From: Elusimicrobiaceae bacterium
GTDB taxonomy: Bacteria; Elusimicrobiota; Elusimicrobia; Elusimicrobiales; Elusimicrobiaceae
Reading direction: 5' to 3'
DNA: 64,000 nucleotides
Assembly: GCA_045129775.1 (NCBI GenBank)
Contig: JBGUOO010000041.1
Location: 1,545 to 65,544, forward strand
A program made the translations under genes and the position numbers. This document shows, piece by piece, positions 9,545-61,898 of this stretch. Every line of letters begins with the position of its first letter. Within the stretch, counting starts at the first letter, position 1. The notes beneath the pieces were generated by a model that was not told the origin of the DNA, searched no databases, and worked only from the letters and a program-made list of their open reading frames with translations.

Positions 9545-9574
9545 AAAGCGCACATTGTAAAATGTGCGCTTTTT
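9545..9574 (+). terminator. asnS intrinsic terminator
   Basis: AAAGCGCACATT / AATGTGCGCTTT followed by a T run. Confidence 0.85.
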
Positions 9575-9600
9575 TATTATACTATAGGTACAATTTGATC

Positions 9601-9882
9601 CTGTTTTTGGAACCGTACGAAGAATACGGGGTAGCTTGAAATTTCAAGCACCGCACTACTCCAAAGACAGCCGAAATTAAGACGCAAAATGAACGGATTA
9701 ATTACCCGGTTGTTTTGCGTCGAATGTTTGCCACGCAAGTGGTAAACTACGGCTGTTGTATGGAGTACCGTAGTGCGGACTCTTGTATAGTCAGCCGTTT
9801 TTGTTGGTTTCATAAGCAGAAAATTGAAAATGTAAGTCAGGTGTAAACCTGACAATATAAGGAGAAAAACTTATGAAATCAA
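9601..9882 (+). ncRNA. Structured pilin leader, copy A (candidate cis-regulatory RNA)
   Basis: P1 9601-9610/9661-9670; P2 CCGTA-CGAAGAA-TACGG; terminator 9749-9802; start-codon hairpin 9804-9816/9870-9882. Confidence 0.85.
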
Positions 9883-18740: not shown

Positions 18741-18869
18741 ATAAAACGGATCCCCCTGCCGCCCGCTACAACCCAGCGGGCGGTTTTTTGTCGGCCCCAG
18801 TATCAAAAGCCCAAATGCAAAATAAGAAGAAATTATGTAGAATGAGATGGTAGTAAATTAAAAATTGAA

Positions 18870-19109
18870 TTGTTTTTGGAACCGTATGTAGAATACGGAG
18901 GACTTTTGGAAACAAAAGTTTTATGCGAGTCCAAAAACAGCCGATTTAGGCACACAAAGGCGACGGCCCGCGTGTGCCGAATGTTTCCCGCACTTGTTGC
19001 GGGAACTACGGCTGTTCCCGTTGGGTTCACTCGCATAAACTCCGGTGGCGACAGCCGTTTTTGCATACACGTTTCCAAAAAAGAATAATAGGAAAAATGT
19101 ATGCAAAAA
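18870..19109 (+). ncRNA. Structured pilin leader, copy B
   Basis: P1 18870-18879/18931-18940; terminator 19008-19062; 12-bp start-codon hairpin 19058-19069/19098-19109. Confidence 0.85.
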
Positions 19110-22925: not shown

Positions 22926-23036
22926 TAGTATTATTTTATATAATTTCCACCCTTTTTGCACGAAAAATACCCTGAAATCCATTGAAAAAAGTTGTTATTT
23001 AACAAGTTTTTTATTATACTATAGATACAATTTAAC

Positions 23037-23254
23037 CTGTTTTTGGAACCGTATAAAGAATACGGACTCTTTTGATAGCAAAAGTTTGATTCGCGTCCGA
23101 AAACAGCTGTTATAGGCACAAAATAGTGGAACTTATAATCCCACCGTTTTGTGCCGAGTGTTTATCGTTTTGCGATAGGCCACGGCTGTTATTGTAGGGA
23201 GTGCGAATCAACCCGGCAGTAGTGGCCGTTTTTAAATGCGTTTTTCAAAGACAG
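23037..23254 (+). ncRNA. Structured pilin leader, copy C
   Basis: P1 23037-23046/23097-23106; terminator 23182-23233 with several G-U pairs; downstream P1-complement 23244-23254. Confidence 0.85.
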
Positions 23255-43925: not shown

Positions 43926-44062
43926 AAAAAATCCTGTATAAAATTTTCTATATTTTAGAAAATTTCACACGGTCAAGCCAAGTAAAAAAACAGACTATTT
44001 CGCAAGCTAAAAAATTATGTTACAATGAAAATGAAGTAAAGAAGTAAAACAGAAAATTTAAT

Positions 44063-44303
44063 CTGTTTTTGGAACCGTACGAAGAATACGGCTTACTTTT
44101 GGAATACCAAAAGTTTGCGCAACGCCAAAGACAGCTGTTTGAGGCATGGAGTAGGTGGAATTGCAAGCCAACTATTTCATGCTTAGTGTTTGCTATCCGC
44201 AAGGATAGCAAGCCGCGGCTGTTATATGTGGGAAAGGTTGCGCAATTCCAGGTATGATAGCCGTATTTTTCGGTTTCTCCAAAAACAGCAAAAAGGAGAA
44301 ATC
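44063..44303 (+). ncRNA. Structured pilin leader, copy D
   Basis: P1 44063-44072/44125-44134; terminator 44215-44270; SD hairpin 44272-44280/44295-44303 overlapping TCCAAAAACAG. Confidence 0.85.
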
Positions 44304-54223: not shown

Positions 54224-54418
54224 GTTTTGGCTCCTTACTTTTTCCGTCGGACAAAAACTACTTGTTATATTATACAAAATCTCGTCGGTAGTCCGGCAAG
54301 GGCCAAAGGACCCAATTAGTTTATAGGCCCGCACAAAACCGCTTGTATTGGGGTACCATAACACCTTATCAAGAAATTATGTTAAAATAGAAAAGAAGTA
54401 AAGAAATAAAAATTTAAT

Positions 54419-54664
54419 CTGTTTTTGGAACTATATGTAGAATATAGAGCGCTTTGGAAGAAACCAAGCACAAAGAAAGTCCAAAAATAGTCGTTAAAAG
54501 GCACGAACGGGTCTCGAGCCCCGCTCGTGCCGAATGTTTCCCTTTTTGCCTAGGCAAAAAGGGAGATTACGGCTGTTTTGCGGGGTTACTTTCTTTGGCT
54601 CTGTATTCCAGCCGTTTTGCATATACTCCAAAAGCAGATATGAAGGAGAAAAGTATATGCAAAA
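54419..54664 (+). ncRNA. Structured pilin leader, copy E
   Basis: P1 54419-54428/54481-54490; P2 with two compensated pairs CTATA/TATAG; terminator 54569-54618; 12-bp start-codon hairpin 54615-54626/54653-54664. Confidence 0.85.
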
Positions 54665-59853: not shown

Positions 59854-61101
59854 ATGAAGACCATTTTGTATTATGTGCAGCAAATCCCCAACTATCCGGC
59901 GCACTACCACACCTTAACCGCGCAGGTCATTTCCGCCGTGGTATTTATCCTTTTACTGATATTATTAGTAAAAGTATTTACCTATATTTGCAATAATTAT
60001 TTGGCACGCGTGGTCAAATTTTTTAAGGCTGAAAAATGGTTTAACACGCTGACCGAAAAGCGGTTTTTTACGGCACTGGGCATTGTGATTGCCGCCATGG
60101 CCGCCATTGATTTCCACCCGATTTTCATCTCCGAGCAAGTGAATTGGATTGCCACTTTTATGGGCAAGCTGACCGGTACTTTTGTGCTGCTGAGCTTTTC
60201 CTACCTGGGGTTTACGTTCTTAAATACGCTGGATAAACTCTATGGTCGCAACCCCAAAATACCGATAAAGGGCCTGGTGCAAGTATTTAAAATTATTTTG
60301 TTTTTGGCCACCGCGCTATTCTTAATTTCCATTTTACTGGGCCGCAAACCGCTCTACATTATTACTGGGTTGTCCGCGTTGGCGGCGGTGTTTTCGTTAA
60401 TTTTTAAGGACCCGATTTTAGGTTTTGCCGCCAGCATTCAGCTAACGACTAATAACCTCATTAAAATTGGGGACTGGATTACCGTGGACTCGGCCGGGGC
60501 CGACGGGAACATTTTGGATATTTCGCTTACCAGCGTACGTGTGCAAAACTTTGATATGACCATTGTCAGCGTGCCGACGTATGACCTGATTTCCAAACCG
60601 TTTAAAAACTGGAACGGTATGTACGAAGCTAAAGCGCGGCGCATCCAACGCAGTATTTTAATTGATGTGGACACCGTTAAATTTTTGGACGAAGAAATGC
60701 TCAAACGGCTTAAAAAAATTGAGCTCTTAAAAGATTATTTGGAAAGCAAAGAAAAAGAAATCAACGATTTTAATGCCAAGCACAACGTGCACGAAAACGT
60801 GATTAACGGCCGGCACTTAACCAACATTGGCACATTTAGACATTATGCCGAGGAATATTTAAAATCGCGCCCGTTTGTGACGCAGGACGACCCCGGTTTT
60901 ACCTTAATGGTGCGCCAGTTGCCACCCAACGCGCAAGGCATTCCGCTGGAAGTGTACTGCTTTGTAAACACGACGGTGTGGACGGCGTATGAGAGTTTAC
61001 AGTCCGACATTTTTGACCATTTATTCTCGGTACTGCCGGAATTTGGGTTGTATGCGTATCAACAACCCAGTGGAAGGAATTTGAGCAAACTGGTGAAGTA
61101 A
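59854..61101 (+). CDS. Small-conductance mechanosensitive channel (MscS family, YbdG-like)
   Basis: FKDPILGFAASIQL, IGDWI, ADGNILDISLTSVRVQNFD, FKNWNGM, LTNIGTFR, QSDIFDHL. Confidence 0.93.
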   Translation: MKTILYYVQQIPNYPAHYHTLTAQVISAVVFILLLILLVKVFTYICNNYLARVVKFFKAEKWFNTLTEKRFFTALGIVIAAMAAIDFHPIFISEQVNWIATFMGKLTGTFVLLSFSYLGFTFLNTLDKLYGRNPKIPIKGLVQVFKIILFLATALFLISILLGRKPLYIITGLSALAAVFSLIFKDPILGFAASIQLTTNNLIKIGDWITVDSAGADGNILDISLTSVRVQNFDMTIVSVPTYDLISKPFKNWNGMYEAKARRIQRSILIDVDTVKFLDEEMLKRLKKIELLKDYLESKEKEINDFNAKHNVHENVINGRHLTNIGTFRHYAEEYLKSRPFVTQDDPGFTLMVRQLPPNAQGIPLEVYCFVNTTVWTAYESLQSDIFDHLFSVLPEFGLYAYQQPSGRNLSKLVK

Positions 61102-61164
61102 TTTTGTTATAATAAATTATCTTACGGATAGGAGGAAATACCTTAACGTAACTACAATTTGAAA

Positions 61165-61350
61165 CTATTTTTGAACCGTATGTGGAATACGGGAATGCTT
61201 CGCAAGGAGCTTCGGACAAGCCAAAAATAGCCGCTTGAGGCACAACAAGGAACGCGTCTTTGTTGTGCCGAATGTTTCCTATTTTTAAATAGGAAACTAC
61301 GGCTATTTATGGGGTTTTCCTTGTCCGAAGCCCGGTAAACAGCCGTTTTT
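61165..61350 (+). ncRNA. Structured pilin leader, copy F
   Basis: P1 CTATTTTTG 61165-61173 / CAAAAATAG 61222-61230 (compensated A-T pair); terminator 61299-61350. Confidence 0.85.
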
Positions 61351-61394: not shown

Positions 61395-61898
61395 ATGAAA
61401 AATAAACAAGCGTTTACGCTGATTGAGTTATTAGTAGTGGTGTTAATTATCGGCATATTGGCGGCGGTAGCCGTGCCACAGTACCGAGTAGCTGTTCGCA
61501 AAGCAGATTTGTCGCGCTATATGGCTTTGGTAAGCGCCGTTTATGAAGCACAACAAGTTTATTATCTTGCTCATGGAAAATATTCTAATAAACTTACAAA
61601 TTTGGATATATCTATGCCCATTACAGAGGAATGTACTCTTTCTACAACCAAAGACAGTGAAGATACCTACTATTGTAACTCTGCAAAGATGGGAATATCT
61701 GATTTAGGAACTAGTATCCAGGCGGGTTCTGATGAAATTCGATATGTAAAATTTTTACAAGACCGAACTGCACATGAAATTACTTTTAAACAAGGAACCA
61801 CCTACTGTTTTGCAAAAGGTGATATTTCCAAAAAAGCATGCCAAGCGTTCGGCGGCAACTTCTTAGGTGAAGCTACGTGGGCCTATTATCAACTGTAA
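61395..61898 (+). CDS. Type IV pilin (PilE-like)
   Basis: A|FTLIELLVVVLIIGILAAVAVPQYR; SD AAGGA. Confidence 0.92.
   Translation: MKNKQAFTLIELLVVVLIIGILAAVAVPQYRVAVRKADLSRYMALVSAVYEAQQVYYLAHGKYSNKLTNLDISMPITEECTLSTTKDSEDTYYCNSAKMGISDLGTSIQAGSDEIRYVKFLQDRTAHEITFKQGTTYCFAKGDISKKACQAFGGNFLGEATWAYYQL

What the first reader, a model, noticed from the sequence alone, without database searches (positions are those of the whole stretch)
61165..61350. Three mutually exclusive helices give the leader a terminator/antiterminator switch
Seen: the central strand AYAGYYG overlaps P1-3' and can also pair with the terminator 5' arm CGGCTRT. It reads ACAGCCG (A, B), ACAGCTG (C, D), ATAGTCG (E) and ATAGCCG (F), and all pair fully when G-U is allowed. 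In copy F the change is coordinated over three strands: P1-5' CTAT, middle ATAG and terminator-5' CTAT. The terminator 3' arm stays ACAG and accepts an A-C mismatch. Each terminator stem ends in GCCGT plus 4-5 T. Inference: when P1 forms, the terminator forms (OFF). When the middle strand pairs with the terminator 5' arm, it closes a second three-way junction (P4, GAAUG, P5, UA/CA) and allows read-through (ON). Either junction could be the sensor. A protein antiterminator or a trans RNA is equally possible.
Basis: partly seen in the sequence, partly recalled or inferred. Interest (0 to 1): 0.88.

Follow-up and report, generated by a model that had tools for sequence, protein, structure and literature searches.

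The report
Terminator/antiterminator switch in pilin leaders
The flagged stretch is one of about 100 copies, in a 1.5-Mb gut Elusimicrobia genome, of an undescribed folded leader RNA in front of pilin genes; its four conserved strands can pair either as a transcription stop signal or as a read-through shape, so it probably acts as a shared on/off switch with an unknown trigger.

Summary
Observation confirmed. In all six window copies the middle strand (CCAAAAAYAGYYG) can pair with the 5' strand (P1) or with ACGGCTRTT. ACGGCTRTT can instead pair with RGCCGT, which is followed by a T-run.

The element has about 102 copies in this genome, essentially all upstream of prepilin-type genes. It matches no Rfam family and I found no description in the literature.

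Support for each helix:
- P1: compensatory changes.
- Antiterminator (AT): wobble-only changes plus rare double changes.
- Terminator (T): an invariant 6-bp base and a covarying distal stem.
- All three: a shorter, P4-less form found across Elusimicrobiota has different strand sequences yet keeps all three pairings.

A variable helix X:X' (cognate -16.3 vs non-cognate -6.1 kcal/mol) extends the antiterminator, and X' is the terminator loop. The predicted ON and OFF folds are nearly isoenergetic (+2.4 ± 3.7 kcal/mol).

Best reading: a 1:2 + 3:4 versus 2:3 transcription attenuator. Only the four exchanging strands are conserved, so I see no ligand pocket and favour a trans factor or kinetic control over a metabolite.

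The P4 loop carries self-complementary hexamers, which suggests RNA dimerisation.

The parts
61155..61164 (+). Conserved 5' flank CAATTTGAAA (the (A)CAATTT motif precedes strand 1 in nearly all copies). In many copies it can pair with AAATTG downstream of the T-run.
61165..61173 (+). Strand 1 (P1 5' strand, the anti-antiterminator strand), CTATTTTTG. Consensus CTGTTTTTGG.
   Evidence: 10-bp P1. Compensatory G-C to A-U changes at two positions (7 and 8 copies).
61176..61192 (+). P2 hairpin, CCGTAT-GTGGA-ATACGG.
   Evidence: all 6 pairs have changes on both sides across 93 homologues.
61197..61210 (+). P3 hairpin with a GCAA (GNRA) loop.
61210..61220 (+). X strand, CTTCGGACAAG. Variable between copies. 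Pairs with X' at 61320-61330.
   Evidence: cognate -16.3 vs non-cognate -6.1 kcal/mol; 83/95 copies beat every non-cognate partner.
61221..61233 (+). Strand 2 (middle strand), CCAAAAATAGCCG. 61222-61230 pairs with strand 1 (P1). 61226-61233 pairs with strand 3 (antiterminator).
61239..61269 (+). P4 hairpin. The apex holds the palindrome ACGCGT (61252-61257). P4 is absent from the short form of the family.
61272..61298 (+). P5 hairpin (GTTT...AAAC base plus an A61272:T61298 pair, T61273 bulged). It is preceded by the linker GA of GAAUG.
61299..61318 (+). Strand 3, ACGGCTATTTATGGGGTTTT. 61300-61307 pairs with strand 2 (antiterminator). The whole stretch is the 5' arm of the terminator.
61320..61330 (+). 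X' strand, CTTGTCCGAAG, at the apex of the terminator hairpin. Partner of X.
61327..61346 (+). Strand 4, the terminator 3' arm, ending in CAGCCGT (RGCCGT is the invariant part).
61346..61350 (+). T-run (5 T; 5-7 T within 8 nt in all copies).
61395..61898 (+). Controlled gene: a prepilin-type protein (N_methyl, PF07963).
9601..9802 (+). Copy A of the same leader.
18870..19062 (+). Copy B.
23037..23233 (+). Copy C.
44063..44270 (+). Copy D.
54419..54618 (+). Copy E.

Best explanation
The stretch is one copy of an undescribed cis-acting leader RNA of Elusimicrobiota. It works as a transcription attenuator built from four mutually complementary strands.

The strands:
- Strand 1: CUGUUUUUGG.
- Strand 2: CCAAAAACAGCCG.
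- Strand 3: ACGGCUGUU followed by about 9 nt.
- Strand 4: about 12 variable nt followed by RGCCGU, then a U-run.

The two states:
- OFF is 1:2 (P1, which closes the P2-P3 junction and acts as the anti-antiterminator) plus 3:4 (an ~18-bp terminator of about -22 kcal/mol, followed by U5-7).
- ON is 2:3 (the antiterminator), lengthened by the gene-specific helix X:X'.

Geometry: X lies directly 5' of strand 2, and X' lies directly 5' of strand 4. Strands 2 and 4 are therefore tethered on either side of one hinge and compete for strand 3 by branch migration.

Predicted order of events during transcription (inferred):
1. P1 forms first.
2. The 2:3 + X:X' rod then displaces it.
3. Whether strand 4 can invade in time, with strand 1 recapturing strand 2, decides between termination and read-through into the pilin gene.

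What is shown: the three pairings exist, exclude each other, are kept by selection, and are energetically balanced.

What is inferred: that they control termination, and what the input is.

My committed guess on the input is that it acts on P1, the anti-antiterminator. I think it is a trans-acting macromolecule or a kinetic/global parameter (about 0.7 combined) rather than a metabolite pocket (about 0.25). The reason is that only the four exchanging strands are conserved.
For: Copy number and gene link:
- About 102 copies in the genome.
- 94 are followed within 342 nt or less by a prepilin motif. The other 8 lie at contig ends or have a variant motif.
- All six window ORFs match PF07963.

P1:
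- 93-95/95 copies pair at most positions.
- At position 2 the pairs are G-C 70, G-U 18, A-U 7, with 0 mismatches. At position 9 they are G-C 82, A-U 8, G-U 3, A-C 2.

Antiterminator (AT):
- 90-95/95 paired at seven of its eight positions; the terminal G-C pair is kept in 83/95.
- Changes are C-to-U or A-to-G wobble-compatible ones only.
- Strand-3 G-to-A occurs 4 times in this genome and 2 times elsewhere, always opposite U.
- One homologue changes strand 3 G-to-A together with both of its partners.

Terminator (T):
- Invariant ACGGCU/RGCCGU base.
- Distal positions 9-12 pair 71, 67, 66 and 60 of 85, against 41, 44, 38 and 39 expected from non-cognate arms.
- The hairpin alone folds at -22 kcal/mol. 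There are 5-7 U within 8 nt.

Short-form subfamilies use different strand sequences but keep all three helices. Cognate vs non-cognate energies: P1 -13.3/-8.9, AT -21.4/-16.6, T -17.9/-13.0 kcal/mol.

X:X': -16.3 vs -6.1 kcal/mol and -15.7 vs -5.7 kcal/mol in other genomes. It abuts strands 2 and 4 with a 0-nt gap in 86 and 89 of 95 copies.

Folding by transcript length, on 95 copies:
- Just before strand 4: AT predicted in 89/95 and P1 in 0/95.
- Through the U-run: P1 in 67/95 and T in 69/95.
- ddG(ON-OFF) = +2.4 ± 3.7 kcal/mol.

P2-P5 covary: 738 double-change cells against 184 in shuffles, 0/500 shuffles as high.

Only the four strands are conserved in 24 distinct short forms.
Against: - There is no transcript evidence.
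- The simple terminator scan does not call the hairpin (its loop limit is 8 nt). The stem has a poorly paired patch at positions 6-8 in about 30% of copies.
- Covariation for AT on its own is thin, because both strands are conserved (3 double-change cells, 10/500 shuffles as high).
- ViennaRNA ignores pseudoknots. If X:X' persists beside the terminator, OFF is more stable than computed, and the default state could be termination rather than read-through.
- Part of the sequence conservation among copies could reflect gene-family duplication.
- A hairpin covering the SD and start codon follows the U-run in many copies, so translation control may matter as much as termination.
Confidence: 0.72

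Rival explanations
1. It is a classical metabolite or second-messenger riboswitch. A small ligand, for example c-di-GMP as for pilA1 of Clostridioides difficile, binds the P1/P2/P3 junction (OFF switch) or the strand 2:3/P4/P5 junction (ON switch) and tips the same helix competition.
For: - The architecture matches riboswitch expression platforms: P1's 3' strand is shared with an antiterminator, and the two states are nearly isoenergetic.
- The controlled genes (pilins, GT2/GT8 glycosyltransferases, lipoprotein, OMP-like protein) resemble c-di-GMP regulons.
- The genome encodes GGDEF proteins (4 hits).
- P3 and P5 often carry GNRA loops, as in complex folded aptamers.
Against: - In 24 distinct short forms no junction or loop nucleotide is conserved. 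Only the exchanging strands are.
- Junctions J1/2 and J2/3 are 2 nt long and variable.
- P4 is dispensable.
- No Rfam riboswitch model matches, including c-di-GMP-I and -II.
- About 100 copies per cell would need a very abundant ligand.
Confidence: 0.2
2. The helices are real, but the element acts after transcription. The 'terminator' is mainly a structural or stability element, and regulation is on translation or mRNA decay. This would work through the hairpin that pairs the U-run and the following ~12 nt with the SD/start region, and through a third complement of strand 1 downstream.
For: - The post-terminator segment pairs with the SD/ATG region: cognate -15.6 vs non-cognate -10.7 kcal/mol, median rank 5 of 94.
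- A CCAAARCAG..AAATTG segment downstream can pair with the 5' strand (-9.5 vs -7.4 kcal/mol for shuffled sequence; 40/95 copies at -10 kcal/mol or better).
- With 60 nt more RNA, the ON fold becomes the MFE in 60/95 copies.
Against: - The invariant GC-rich base followed by U5-7 looks like the organism's ordinary intrinsic terminators seen upstream of the leaders.
- The RBS hairpin is weaker in other genomes (-11.9 vs -9.6 kcal/mol, median rank 20).
- Cognate and non-cognate pairings of the downstream complement are almost equally stable (-9.4 vs -8.7 kcal/mol).
- The two layers can coexist, so this is more an addition than an alternative.
Confidence: 0.1
3. It is not a regulator. The similarity is a repeat that spread with pilin gene duplication (or a mobile or DNA-level palindromic element), and the alternative pairings are by-products of repeated A/U-rich and GC-rich words.
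For: - There are about 100 copies in one genome, always tied to one expanding gene family.
- Inverted CAATTT/AAATTG words flank many copies.
- The P4 apex is palindromic at the DNA level too.
Against: - Copies are only about 66% identical, yet they keep every helix through hundreds of compensatory changes.
- The short form in other families precedes unrelated genes and keeps the same three-helix logic with different sequences.
- Orientation relative to the gene is fixed, and each copy has its own promoter.
Confidence: 0.03

Closest known systems
Anti-antiterminator / antiterminator / terminator leaders: the Bacillus subtilis pyr (PyrR) attenuators and the E. coli trp-type 1:2, 2:3, 3:4 attenuator
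   Same: Four successive strands in which 1:2 and 3:4 exclude 2:3. The terminator is followed by a U-run. The 5' helix serves as the anti-antiterminator that decides the outcome.
   Different: - There is no leader peptide (9/95 copies have a chance ORF).
- There is no PyrR binding-loop match (the Rfam PyrR model is silent).
- Structured inserts sit between the strands: P2-P3, then P4-P5.
- A gene-specific helix X:X' extends 2:3 and forms the terminator loop.
- There are about 100 copies per genome, in front of pilin genes.
c-di-GMP-II riboswitch (Rfam RF01786) upstream of pilA1 in Clostridioides difficile
   Same: A structured 5' leader that controls a type IV pilin gene by termination versus read-through.
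   Different: - No sequence or structure match.
- No conserved ligand-pocket nucleotides.
- Different fold, and a different phylum.
Retroviral dimerisation initiation site (HIV-1 DIS) kissing loop; also the loop-loop pairing of guanidine-II (mini-ykkC) hairpins
   Same: The P4 hairpin loop has a median length of 9 nt and a central self-complementary hexamer set off from the stem by unpaired flanks. Examples are A-C-UAAUUA-C and A-A-UUGCAA-G.
   Different: - It sits in a bacterial mRNA leader.
- Mostly A/U-rich palindromes of more than 12 different kinds.
- Dimerisation is untested.
- The loop is absent from the short form.
RfaH/ops and LoaP (NusG-paralogue) processive antitermination of pilus, LPS and capsule operons
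   Same: A leader-borne signal in front of cell-surface genes. Strand 3 of the short forms (GGCGGCGGUUA...) superficially recalls ops (GGCGGUAG).
   Different: Only one NusG-family gene is present in this 94%-complete genome. Here a local terminator is embedded in competing RNA helices, which is not a DNA-strand signal.

Membership tests
Intrinsic (Rho-independent) terminator | A stable GC-rich-based hairpin immediately followed by a U-rich tract. | tested here: met
   Hairpin alone folds at -22.0 ± 2.9 kcal/mol with about 19 pairs. The ACGGCU/RGCCGU base is invariant. There are 5-7 T in the 8 nt from the closing T in 95/95 copies. Caveat: the simple consensus scan misses it because of its loop limit.
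Intrinsic (Rho-independent) terminator | Transcripts actually end at the U-tract. | not testable with these tools
No Term-seq or RNA-seq data could be reached.
Terminator/antiterminator/anti-antiterminator attenuator (general kind) | Three helices that share strands, so that 1:2 + 3:4 excludes 2:3, each kept by selection. | tested here: met
   Strand sharing in the long form: P1 and AT overlap by 5 nt on strand 2, and AT and T overlap by 8 nt on strand 3 (positions given). In short forms the overlaps are 13-27 nt (P1/AT) and 9-20 nt (AT/T).
trp-type ribosome-mediated attenuator | A short leader-peptide ORF with SD overlapping strand 1. | tested here: not met
   Only 9/95 copies have any SD-preceded ORF of 10 codons or more, and the starts are scattered. 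The region is occupied by the covarying hairpins P2/P3.
Known riboswitch, T-box or PyrR classes (Rfam 15) | A match to the family covariance model. | tested here: not met
   No hit at gathering score in the 64-kb window apart from two tRNAs. Nothing meaningful at E up to 10 on copy F. Nothing at E up to 0.1 on five short-form loci.
Metabolite-binding riboswitch (as a kind) | Conserved unpaired nucleotides forming a ligand pocket in a junction or loop. | tested here: not met
   In the consensus of 24 distinct short forms, every position conserved at 70% or more lies in strands 1-4 or the U-run. This is indirect; ligand binding itself was not testable.
RfaH/LoaP-type processive antitermination | A specialised NusG paralogue encoded in the genome. 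| tested here: not met
   PF02357 rings once only, at C31:15559-15864. The genome is 93.9% complete.
ANTAR-protein antiterminator targets | An ANTAR-domain protein and dual hexaloop hairpins. | tested here: inconclusive
   PF03861 gave no hit, but it also rang in none of the control genomes, so the search is uninformative. P2/P3 loops are mostly 3-5 nt.
DIS-like kissing-loop dimerisation element | A self-complementary hexamer exposed in a hairpin loop. | tested here: met
   66/95 copies in this genome and 53/81 in other genomes have a 6-nt palindrome strictly inside the P4 loop, against about 12 expected. P2, P3 and P5 loops have almost none (one each in P3 and P5, none in P2).
DIS-like kissing-loop dimerisation element | The RNA forms dimers through that loop. 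| not testable with these tools
   Needs native gels or SEC with loop mutants.

The most novel reading that the evidence does not exclude
The leaders work as RNA dimers. The self-complementary P4 loops come in at least 12 palindromes, with UAAUUA, UUGCAA, UUCGAA, UUAUAA and UCAUGA the main classes. These loops would let transcripts of the same loop class kiss each other. The ~100 pilin leaders would then form a few cross-talking groups, and terminated leader RNAs could act in trans on nascent ones. That would be an RNA-level network choosing which of about 200 pilin genes are expressed, with no dedicated protein regulator.
Probability: 0.15. Interest if true: 0.92.

Novelty: new variant of a known kind. 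Interest (0 to 1): 0.8.

Why it matters
Gut and rumen Elusimicrobia devote a large share of a very small genome to pilin-like genes. This genome has 209 prepilin motifs in 1.5 Mb, and almost nothing is known about how those genes are controlled.

One leader RNA, present in about 100 copies and kept by selection, would be among the most highly reiterated cis-regulatory RNAs in any bacterium. For comparison, from my own knowledge, T-boxes reach a few dozen copies.

The family offers three things:
- A new RNA family for Rfam.
- A natural series of about 100 tuned variants of one strand-exchange switch. Predicted ddG between the two folds averages +2.4 kcal/mol with an SD of 3.7 (ON is the more stable fold in 27 of 95 copies), which makes it suitable for studying co-transcriptional folding.
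- A direct handle on surface-structure regulation in a barely cultivated phylum.

The self-complementary loop adds a testable case of mRNA-leader dimerisation.

Tried and rejected
- Rfam, at gathering and permissive thresholds: no family.
- Literature searches on Elusimicrobia/Elusimicrobium, pilin, riboswitch and structured ncRNA, including two Breaker-lab genome surveys: no description. The E. minutum genome paper is not held.
- Leader peptide: rejected.
- NusG paralogue: rejected.
- CsrA and Hfq: no tblastn hit; CspA and NusA are present.
- ANTAR: the search was uninformative.
- Simple terminator/promoter scan: finds neither element.
- Cognate test of the first 8 nt of the distal terminator arms by duplex energy: no signal. 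In-register counting was needed to see the covariation.
- Long-range closing helix between the 5' flank and the post-terminator segment: only modest excess over shuffles and no significant covariation. I kept it as a possibility only.
- Non-Elusimicrobia hits of the DNA pattern scan (Kaistella, Planococcus, Haemophilus and others): not confirmed by the covariance model, so they are chance matches.
- P4-loop palindromes as a by-product of hairpin symmetry: rejected. P2, P3 and P5 loops lack them, and the palindromes are separated from the stem by non-complementary flanks.

Full report
**What is at the site.** Window 61165-61350 lies between a + strand gene ending at 61101 and a 167-aa ORF (61395-61898). 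The ORF starts [30 protein letters not shown] and matches the prokaryotic N-terminal methylation motif PF07963.

Five other + strand stretches in the window align with it over about 205 nt at 66% mean column identity. They end at 9802, 19062, 23233, 44270 and 54618. Each precedes another PF07963 protein.

The middle strand is ACAGCCG / ACAGCTG / ATAGTCG / ATAGCCG. The terminator 5' arm is CGGCTGT, or CGGCTAT in copy F. Copy F carries the coordinated CTAT / ATAG / CTAT change.

**Scale.** An HMM built from the six copies finds about 102 copies in the 1.51-Mb, 49-contig genome that holds the window.
- 94 copies are followed within 342 nt or less by a [GAS]FTLIELL-type prepilin motif.
- The other eight lie at contig ends or have the variant AFMLIELL.
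- The genome has 209 such motifs in all.
- Record titles of homologous loci place the organism in Elusimicrobiaceae, among gut and rumen MAGs. The cultured Elusimicrobium posterum Dip510 also carries the element.
- No Rfam 15 family matches.
- Full-text searches, including two systematic ncRNA surveys, found no description.

**Anatomy.** I parsed 95 genome copies and 85 copies from other genomes by conserved anchors. The order of elements is:
1. (A)CAATTT flank
2. Strand 1, CUGUUUUUGG
3. P2
4. P3 (often a GNRA loop)
5. Variable strand X
6. Strand 2, CCAAAAACAGCCG
7. P4
8. GA linker
9. P5 (GUUU/AAAC base, one bulged pyrimidine)
10. Strand 3, ACGGCUGUU plus about 9 nt ending UUGGG
11. A 1-3 nt linker
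12. X'
13. Strand 4: CUCAA, then variable nucleotides, then RGCCGU
14. U-run

P2-P5 are strongly supported across 93 homologues. 94.2% of cells are paired, and 738 cells have changes on both sides against 184 ± 14 in shuffles (0/500 shuffles reach the observed value). Sliding the partners drops pairing to about 40-46%.

**The three competing helices.**

*P1 (1:2)* is 10 bp.
- At position 2 the pairs are G-C 70, G-U 18 and A-U 7, with no mismatch.
- At position 9 they are G-C 82, A-U 8, G-U 3 and A-C 2.

*The antiterminator (2:3)* is 8 bp.
- 90-95 of 95 copies pair at seven positions; the terminal G-C pair is kept in 83.
- Its strand-2 positions outside P1 change almost only C to U, opposite G (14 and 15 copies).
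- Strand-3 G-to-A occurs four times in this genome and twice elsewhere, always opposite U.
- One homologue changes a strand-3 G to A together with both of its partners.
- On its own this helix has little formal covariation, because both strands are conserved: 3 double-change cells, 10/500 shuffles as high.

*The terminator (3:4)* has an invariant 6-bp base, ACGGCU/RGCCGU.
- Positions 6-8 pair in only about 70% of copies.
- The distal half covaries clearly. In other genomes, positions 9-12 pair in 71, 67, 66 and 60 of 85 copies, against 41, 44, 38 and 39 expected from non-cognate arms.
- Alone it folds at -22 kcal/mol with about 19 pairs, and 5-7 U follow within 8 nt.
Only RGCCGU is.

**The short form settles it.** Weak model hits in other genera turned out to be a form of 165-185 nt that lacks P4.
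- A second model finds this form in 8 of 10 genera of the family, in this genome itself (contig C39:2671-2857), and in two further families of the phylum.
- Its four strands differ between subfamilies. One example is AUUAUUUUAUGG / CCAGAAAAUAAUCG / GGCGACGGUUAU / UCGCC. Another is UUGUUUUCGGG / CCGAAAGCAGGUCGCCC / GGGCGACAUUGCUUUGGG / GAUGUCGCCC.
- Yet each subfamily keeps P1, the antiterminator and the terminator. Cognate vs non-cognate energies are -13.3/-8.9, -21.4/-16.6 and -17.9/-13.0 kcal/mol, with median ranks 1-3 of 23.
- This concerted change of all four strands is the best evidence that the competition itself is selected.
- The short form precedes GT2 and GT8 glycosyltransferases, a methyltransferase, a lipoprotein, a Zn-ribbon membrane protein, an OMP-like protein, an HTH_3 regulator, a dynamin-like GTPase and some pilins.
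- The long, P4-bearing form is the one that expanded with the pilin genes. It is present in 4 of 10 genera, with from 1-2 up to at least 57 scored copies per genome.

**X:X'.** The variable strand X pairs with X' far better than with any other copy's X'. The energies are -16.3 vs -6.1 kcal/mol, and 83/95 copies beat all 94 alternatives. In other genomes the values are -15.7 vs -5.7 kcal/mol.

X touches strand 2 (0 nt between them in 86/95), and X' touches strand 4 (0 nt in 89/95). X:X' is therefore the part of the 2:3 helix that is shared with nothing else, and so it is free to drift. At the same time it is the loop of the terminator.

Geometrically it is a hinge. Strands 2 and 4 hang on either side of it and compete for strand 3. 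This geometry is my inference.

**Energetics (ViennaRNA, no pseudoknots).**

| Transcript end | AT predicted | P1 predicted |
|---|---|---|
| End of strand 3 | 73/95 | 19/95 |
| Just before strand 4 | 89/95 | 0/95 |
| Through the U-run | 24/95 | 67/95 (T in 69/95) |
| 60 nt further | 60/95 | 29/95 |

- Constrained folds differ by only +2.4 ± 3.7 kcal/mol (ON minus OFF). ON is more stable in 27/95 copies.
- Copy F itself prefers ON: -80.5 vs -77.5 kcal/mol, z = -7.8. This fits its A-C mismatch in the terminator.
- Such a balance is what an expression platform needs. The spread suggests gene-specific set points (inference).

**What senses?**
- In 24 distinct short forms, every position conserved at 70% or more lies in strands 1-4 or the U-run.
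- The junctions are 2 nt long and variable, and P4 is dispensable.
- There is no leader peptide.
- There is one NusG only.
- There is no CsrA or Hfq by tblastn. CspA and NusA are present.
- GGDEF proteins exist, so c-di-GMP cannot be excluded.
- The ANTAR search was uninformative.

I therefore favour an input that acts on the strands themselves, most simply on P1. This could be a strand-binding factor or a kinetic/global parameter, rather than a metabolite pocket. This step is inference.

**Extra layers seen.**
- The U-run plus the next ~12 nt pairs with the SD/start region: -15.6 vs -10.7 kcal/mol in this genome, weaker elsewhere.
- A third complement of strand 1 lies about 10-15 nt past the U-run in many copies, but its support is modest.
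- The P4 apical loop (median 9 nt) holds a 6-nt palindrome in 66/95 and 53/81 copies, against about 12 expected. P2, P3 and P5 loops hold almost none.
- The palindromes differ by symmetric double changes (UUCGAA, UUGCAA, UUAUAA, UAAUUA, UCAUGA, CUCGAG and others). That is the signature of selection for self-complementarity, as in a kissing-loop dimer.

**Relation to earlier notes.** After my own analysis, I found notes from other agents of this scan on other Elusimicrobia genomes that reach the same reading, including the self-pairing loop. They agree with my results, but they are not independent evidence.

**Verdict.** The switch reading is well supported by comparative and thermodynamic evidence but remains undemonstrated biochemically. 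The RNA family is undescribed, and its mechanism is a new variant of the known attenuator kind.

Noticed in passing
window 61252-61257 (copy F, ACGCGT); 9697-9705 (copy A, ATTAATTAC loop); the P4 apex of the other copies: The P4 apical loop carries a self-complementary hexamer in about 70% of all long-form copies (UAAUUA, UUGCAA, UUCGAA, UUAUAA, UCAUGA and others). About 12 copies would be expected by chance. Other loops lack it. This suggests kissing-loop dimerisation of the leaders.
   Followed up: partly
window 19058-19109 (copy B), 54615-54664 (copy E), and the equivalent place after most copies: The U-run plus the next ~12 nt pairs with the SD/start-codon region of the pilin gene (cognate -15.6 vs non-cognate -10.7 kcal/mol). 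This may be a second, translational layer of control.
   Followed up: partly
window 44280-44292 (copy D, TCCAAAAACAGC) and 54626-54644 (copy E); 10-15 nt after the U-run in many copies: A third copy of the CCAAARCAG word, often followed by AAATTG, could pair with strand 1 and the CAATTT flank in read-through transcripts. The excess over shuffles is modest (-9.5 vs -7.4 kcal/mol) and there is no clear covariation.
   Followed up: partly
window 9560-9600, 23000-23036 (class I); 18840-18869, 44020-44062, 54380-54418 (class II); 61105-61164 (class III): The leaders sit behind at least three different promoter contexts:
- TTATTATACTATAGGTACAATTT, directly abutting the element.
- AAATTATGTAGAAT-type extended -10, about 34 nt upstream.
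- TTGTTATAAT about 60 nt upstream, followed by a conserved TAGGAGG word.
The role of the TAGGAGG word is unexplained.
   Followed up: no
own genome contig C39:2671-2857 (outside the window; locus L139): This genome also has a P4-less short-form leader. It precedes a 219-aa signal-peptide protein that looks like an outer-membrane protein and has no Pfam match.
   Followed up: partly
whole genome; in the window, copies A (9873-) and E (54657-): There are 209 prepilin-type N-terminal motifs in a 1.5-Mb genome, and only about 45% sit behind the leader. Many precursors carry long, repeat-like N-terminal extensions (20-55 aa) before the GFTLIELL cleavage motif.
   Followed up: no
loci L002, L007, L067, L073, L086: Some contigs labelled Spirochaetes (UMGS352) or Muribaculaceae carry bona fide copies of the leader, so they are probably mis-binned or mislabelled Elusimicrobia DNA. 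The Treponema-labelled and other non-Elusimicrobia pattern hits were not confirmed by the covariance model.
   Followed up: partly
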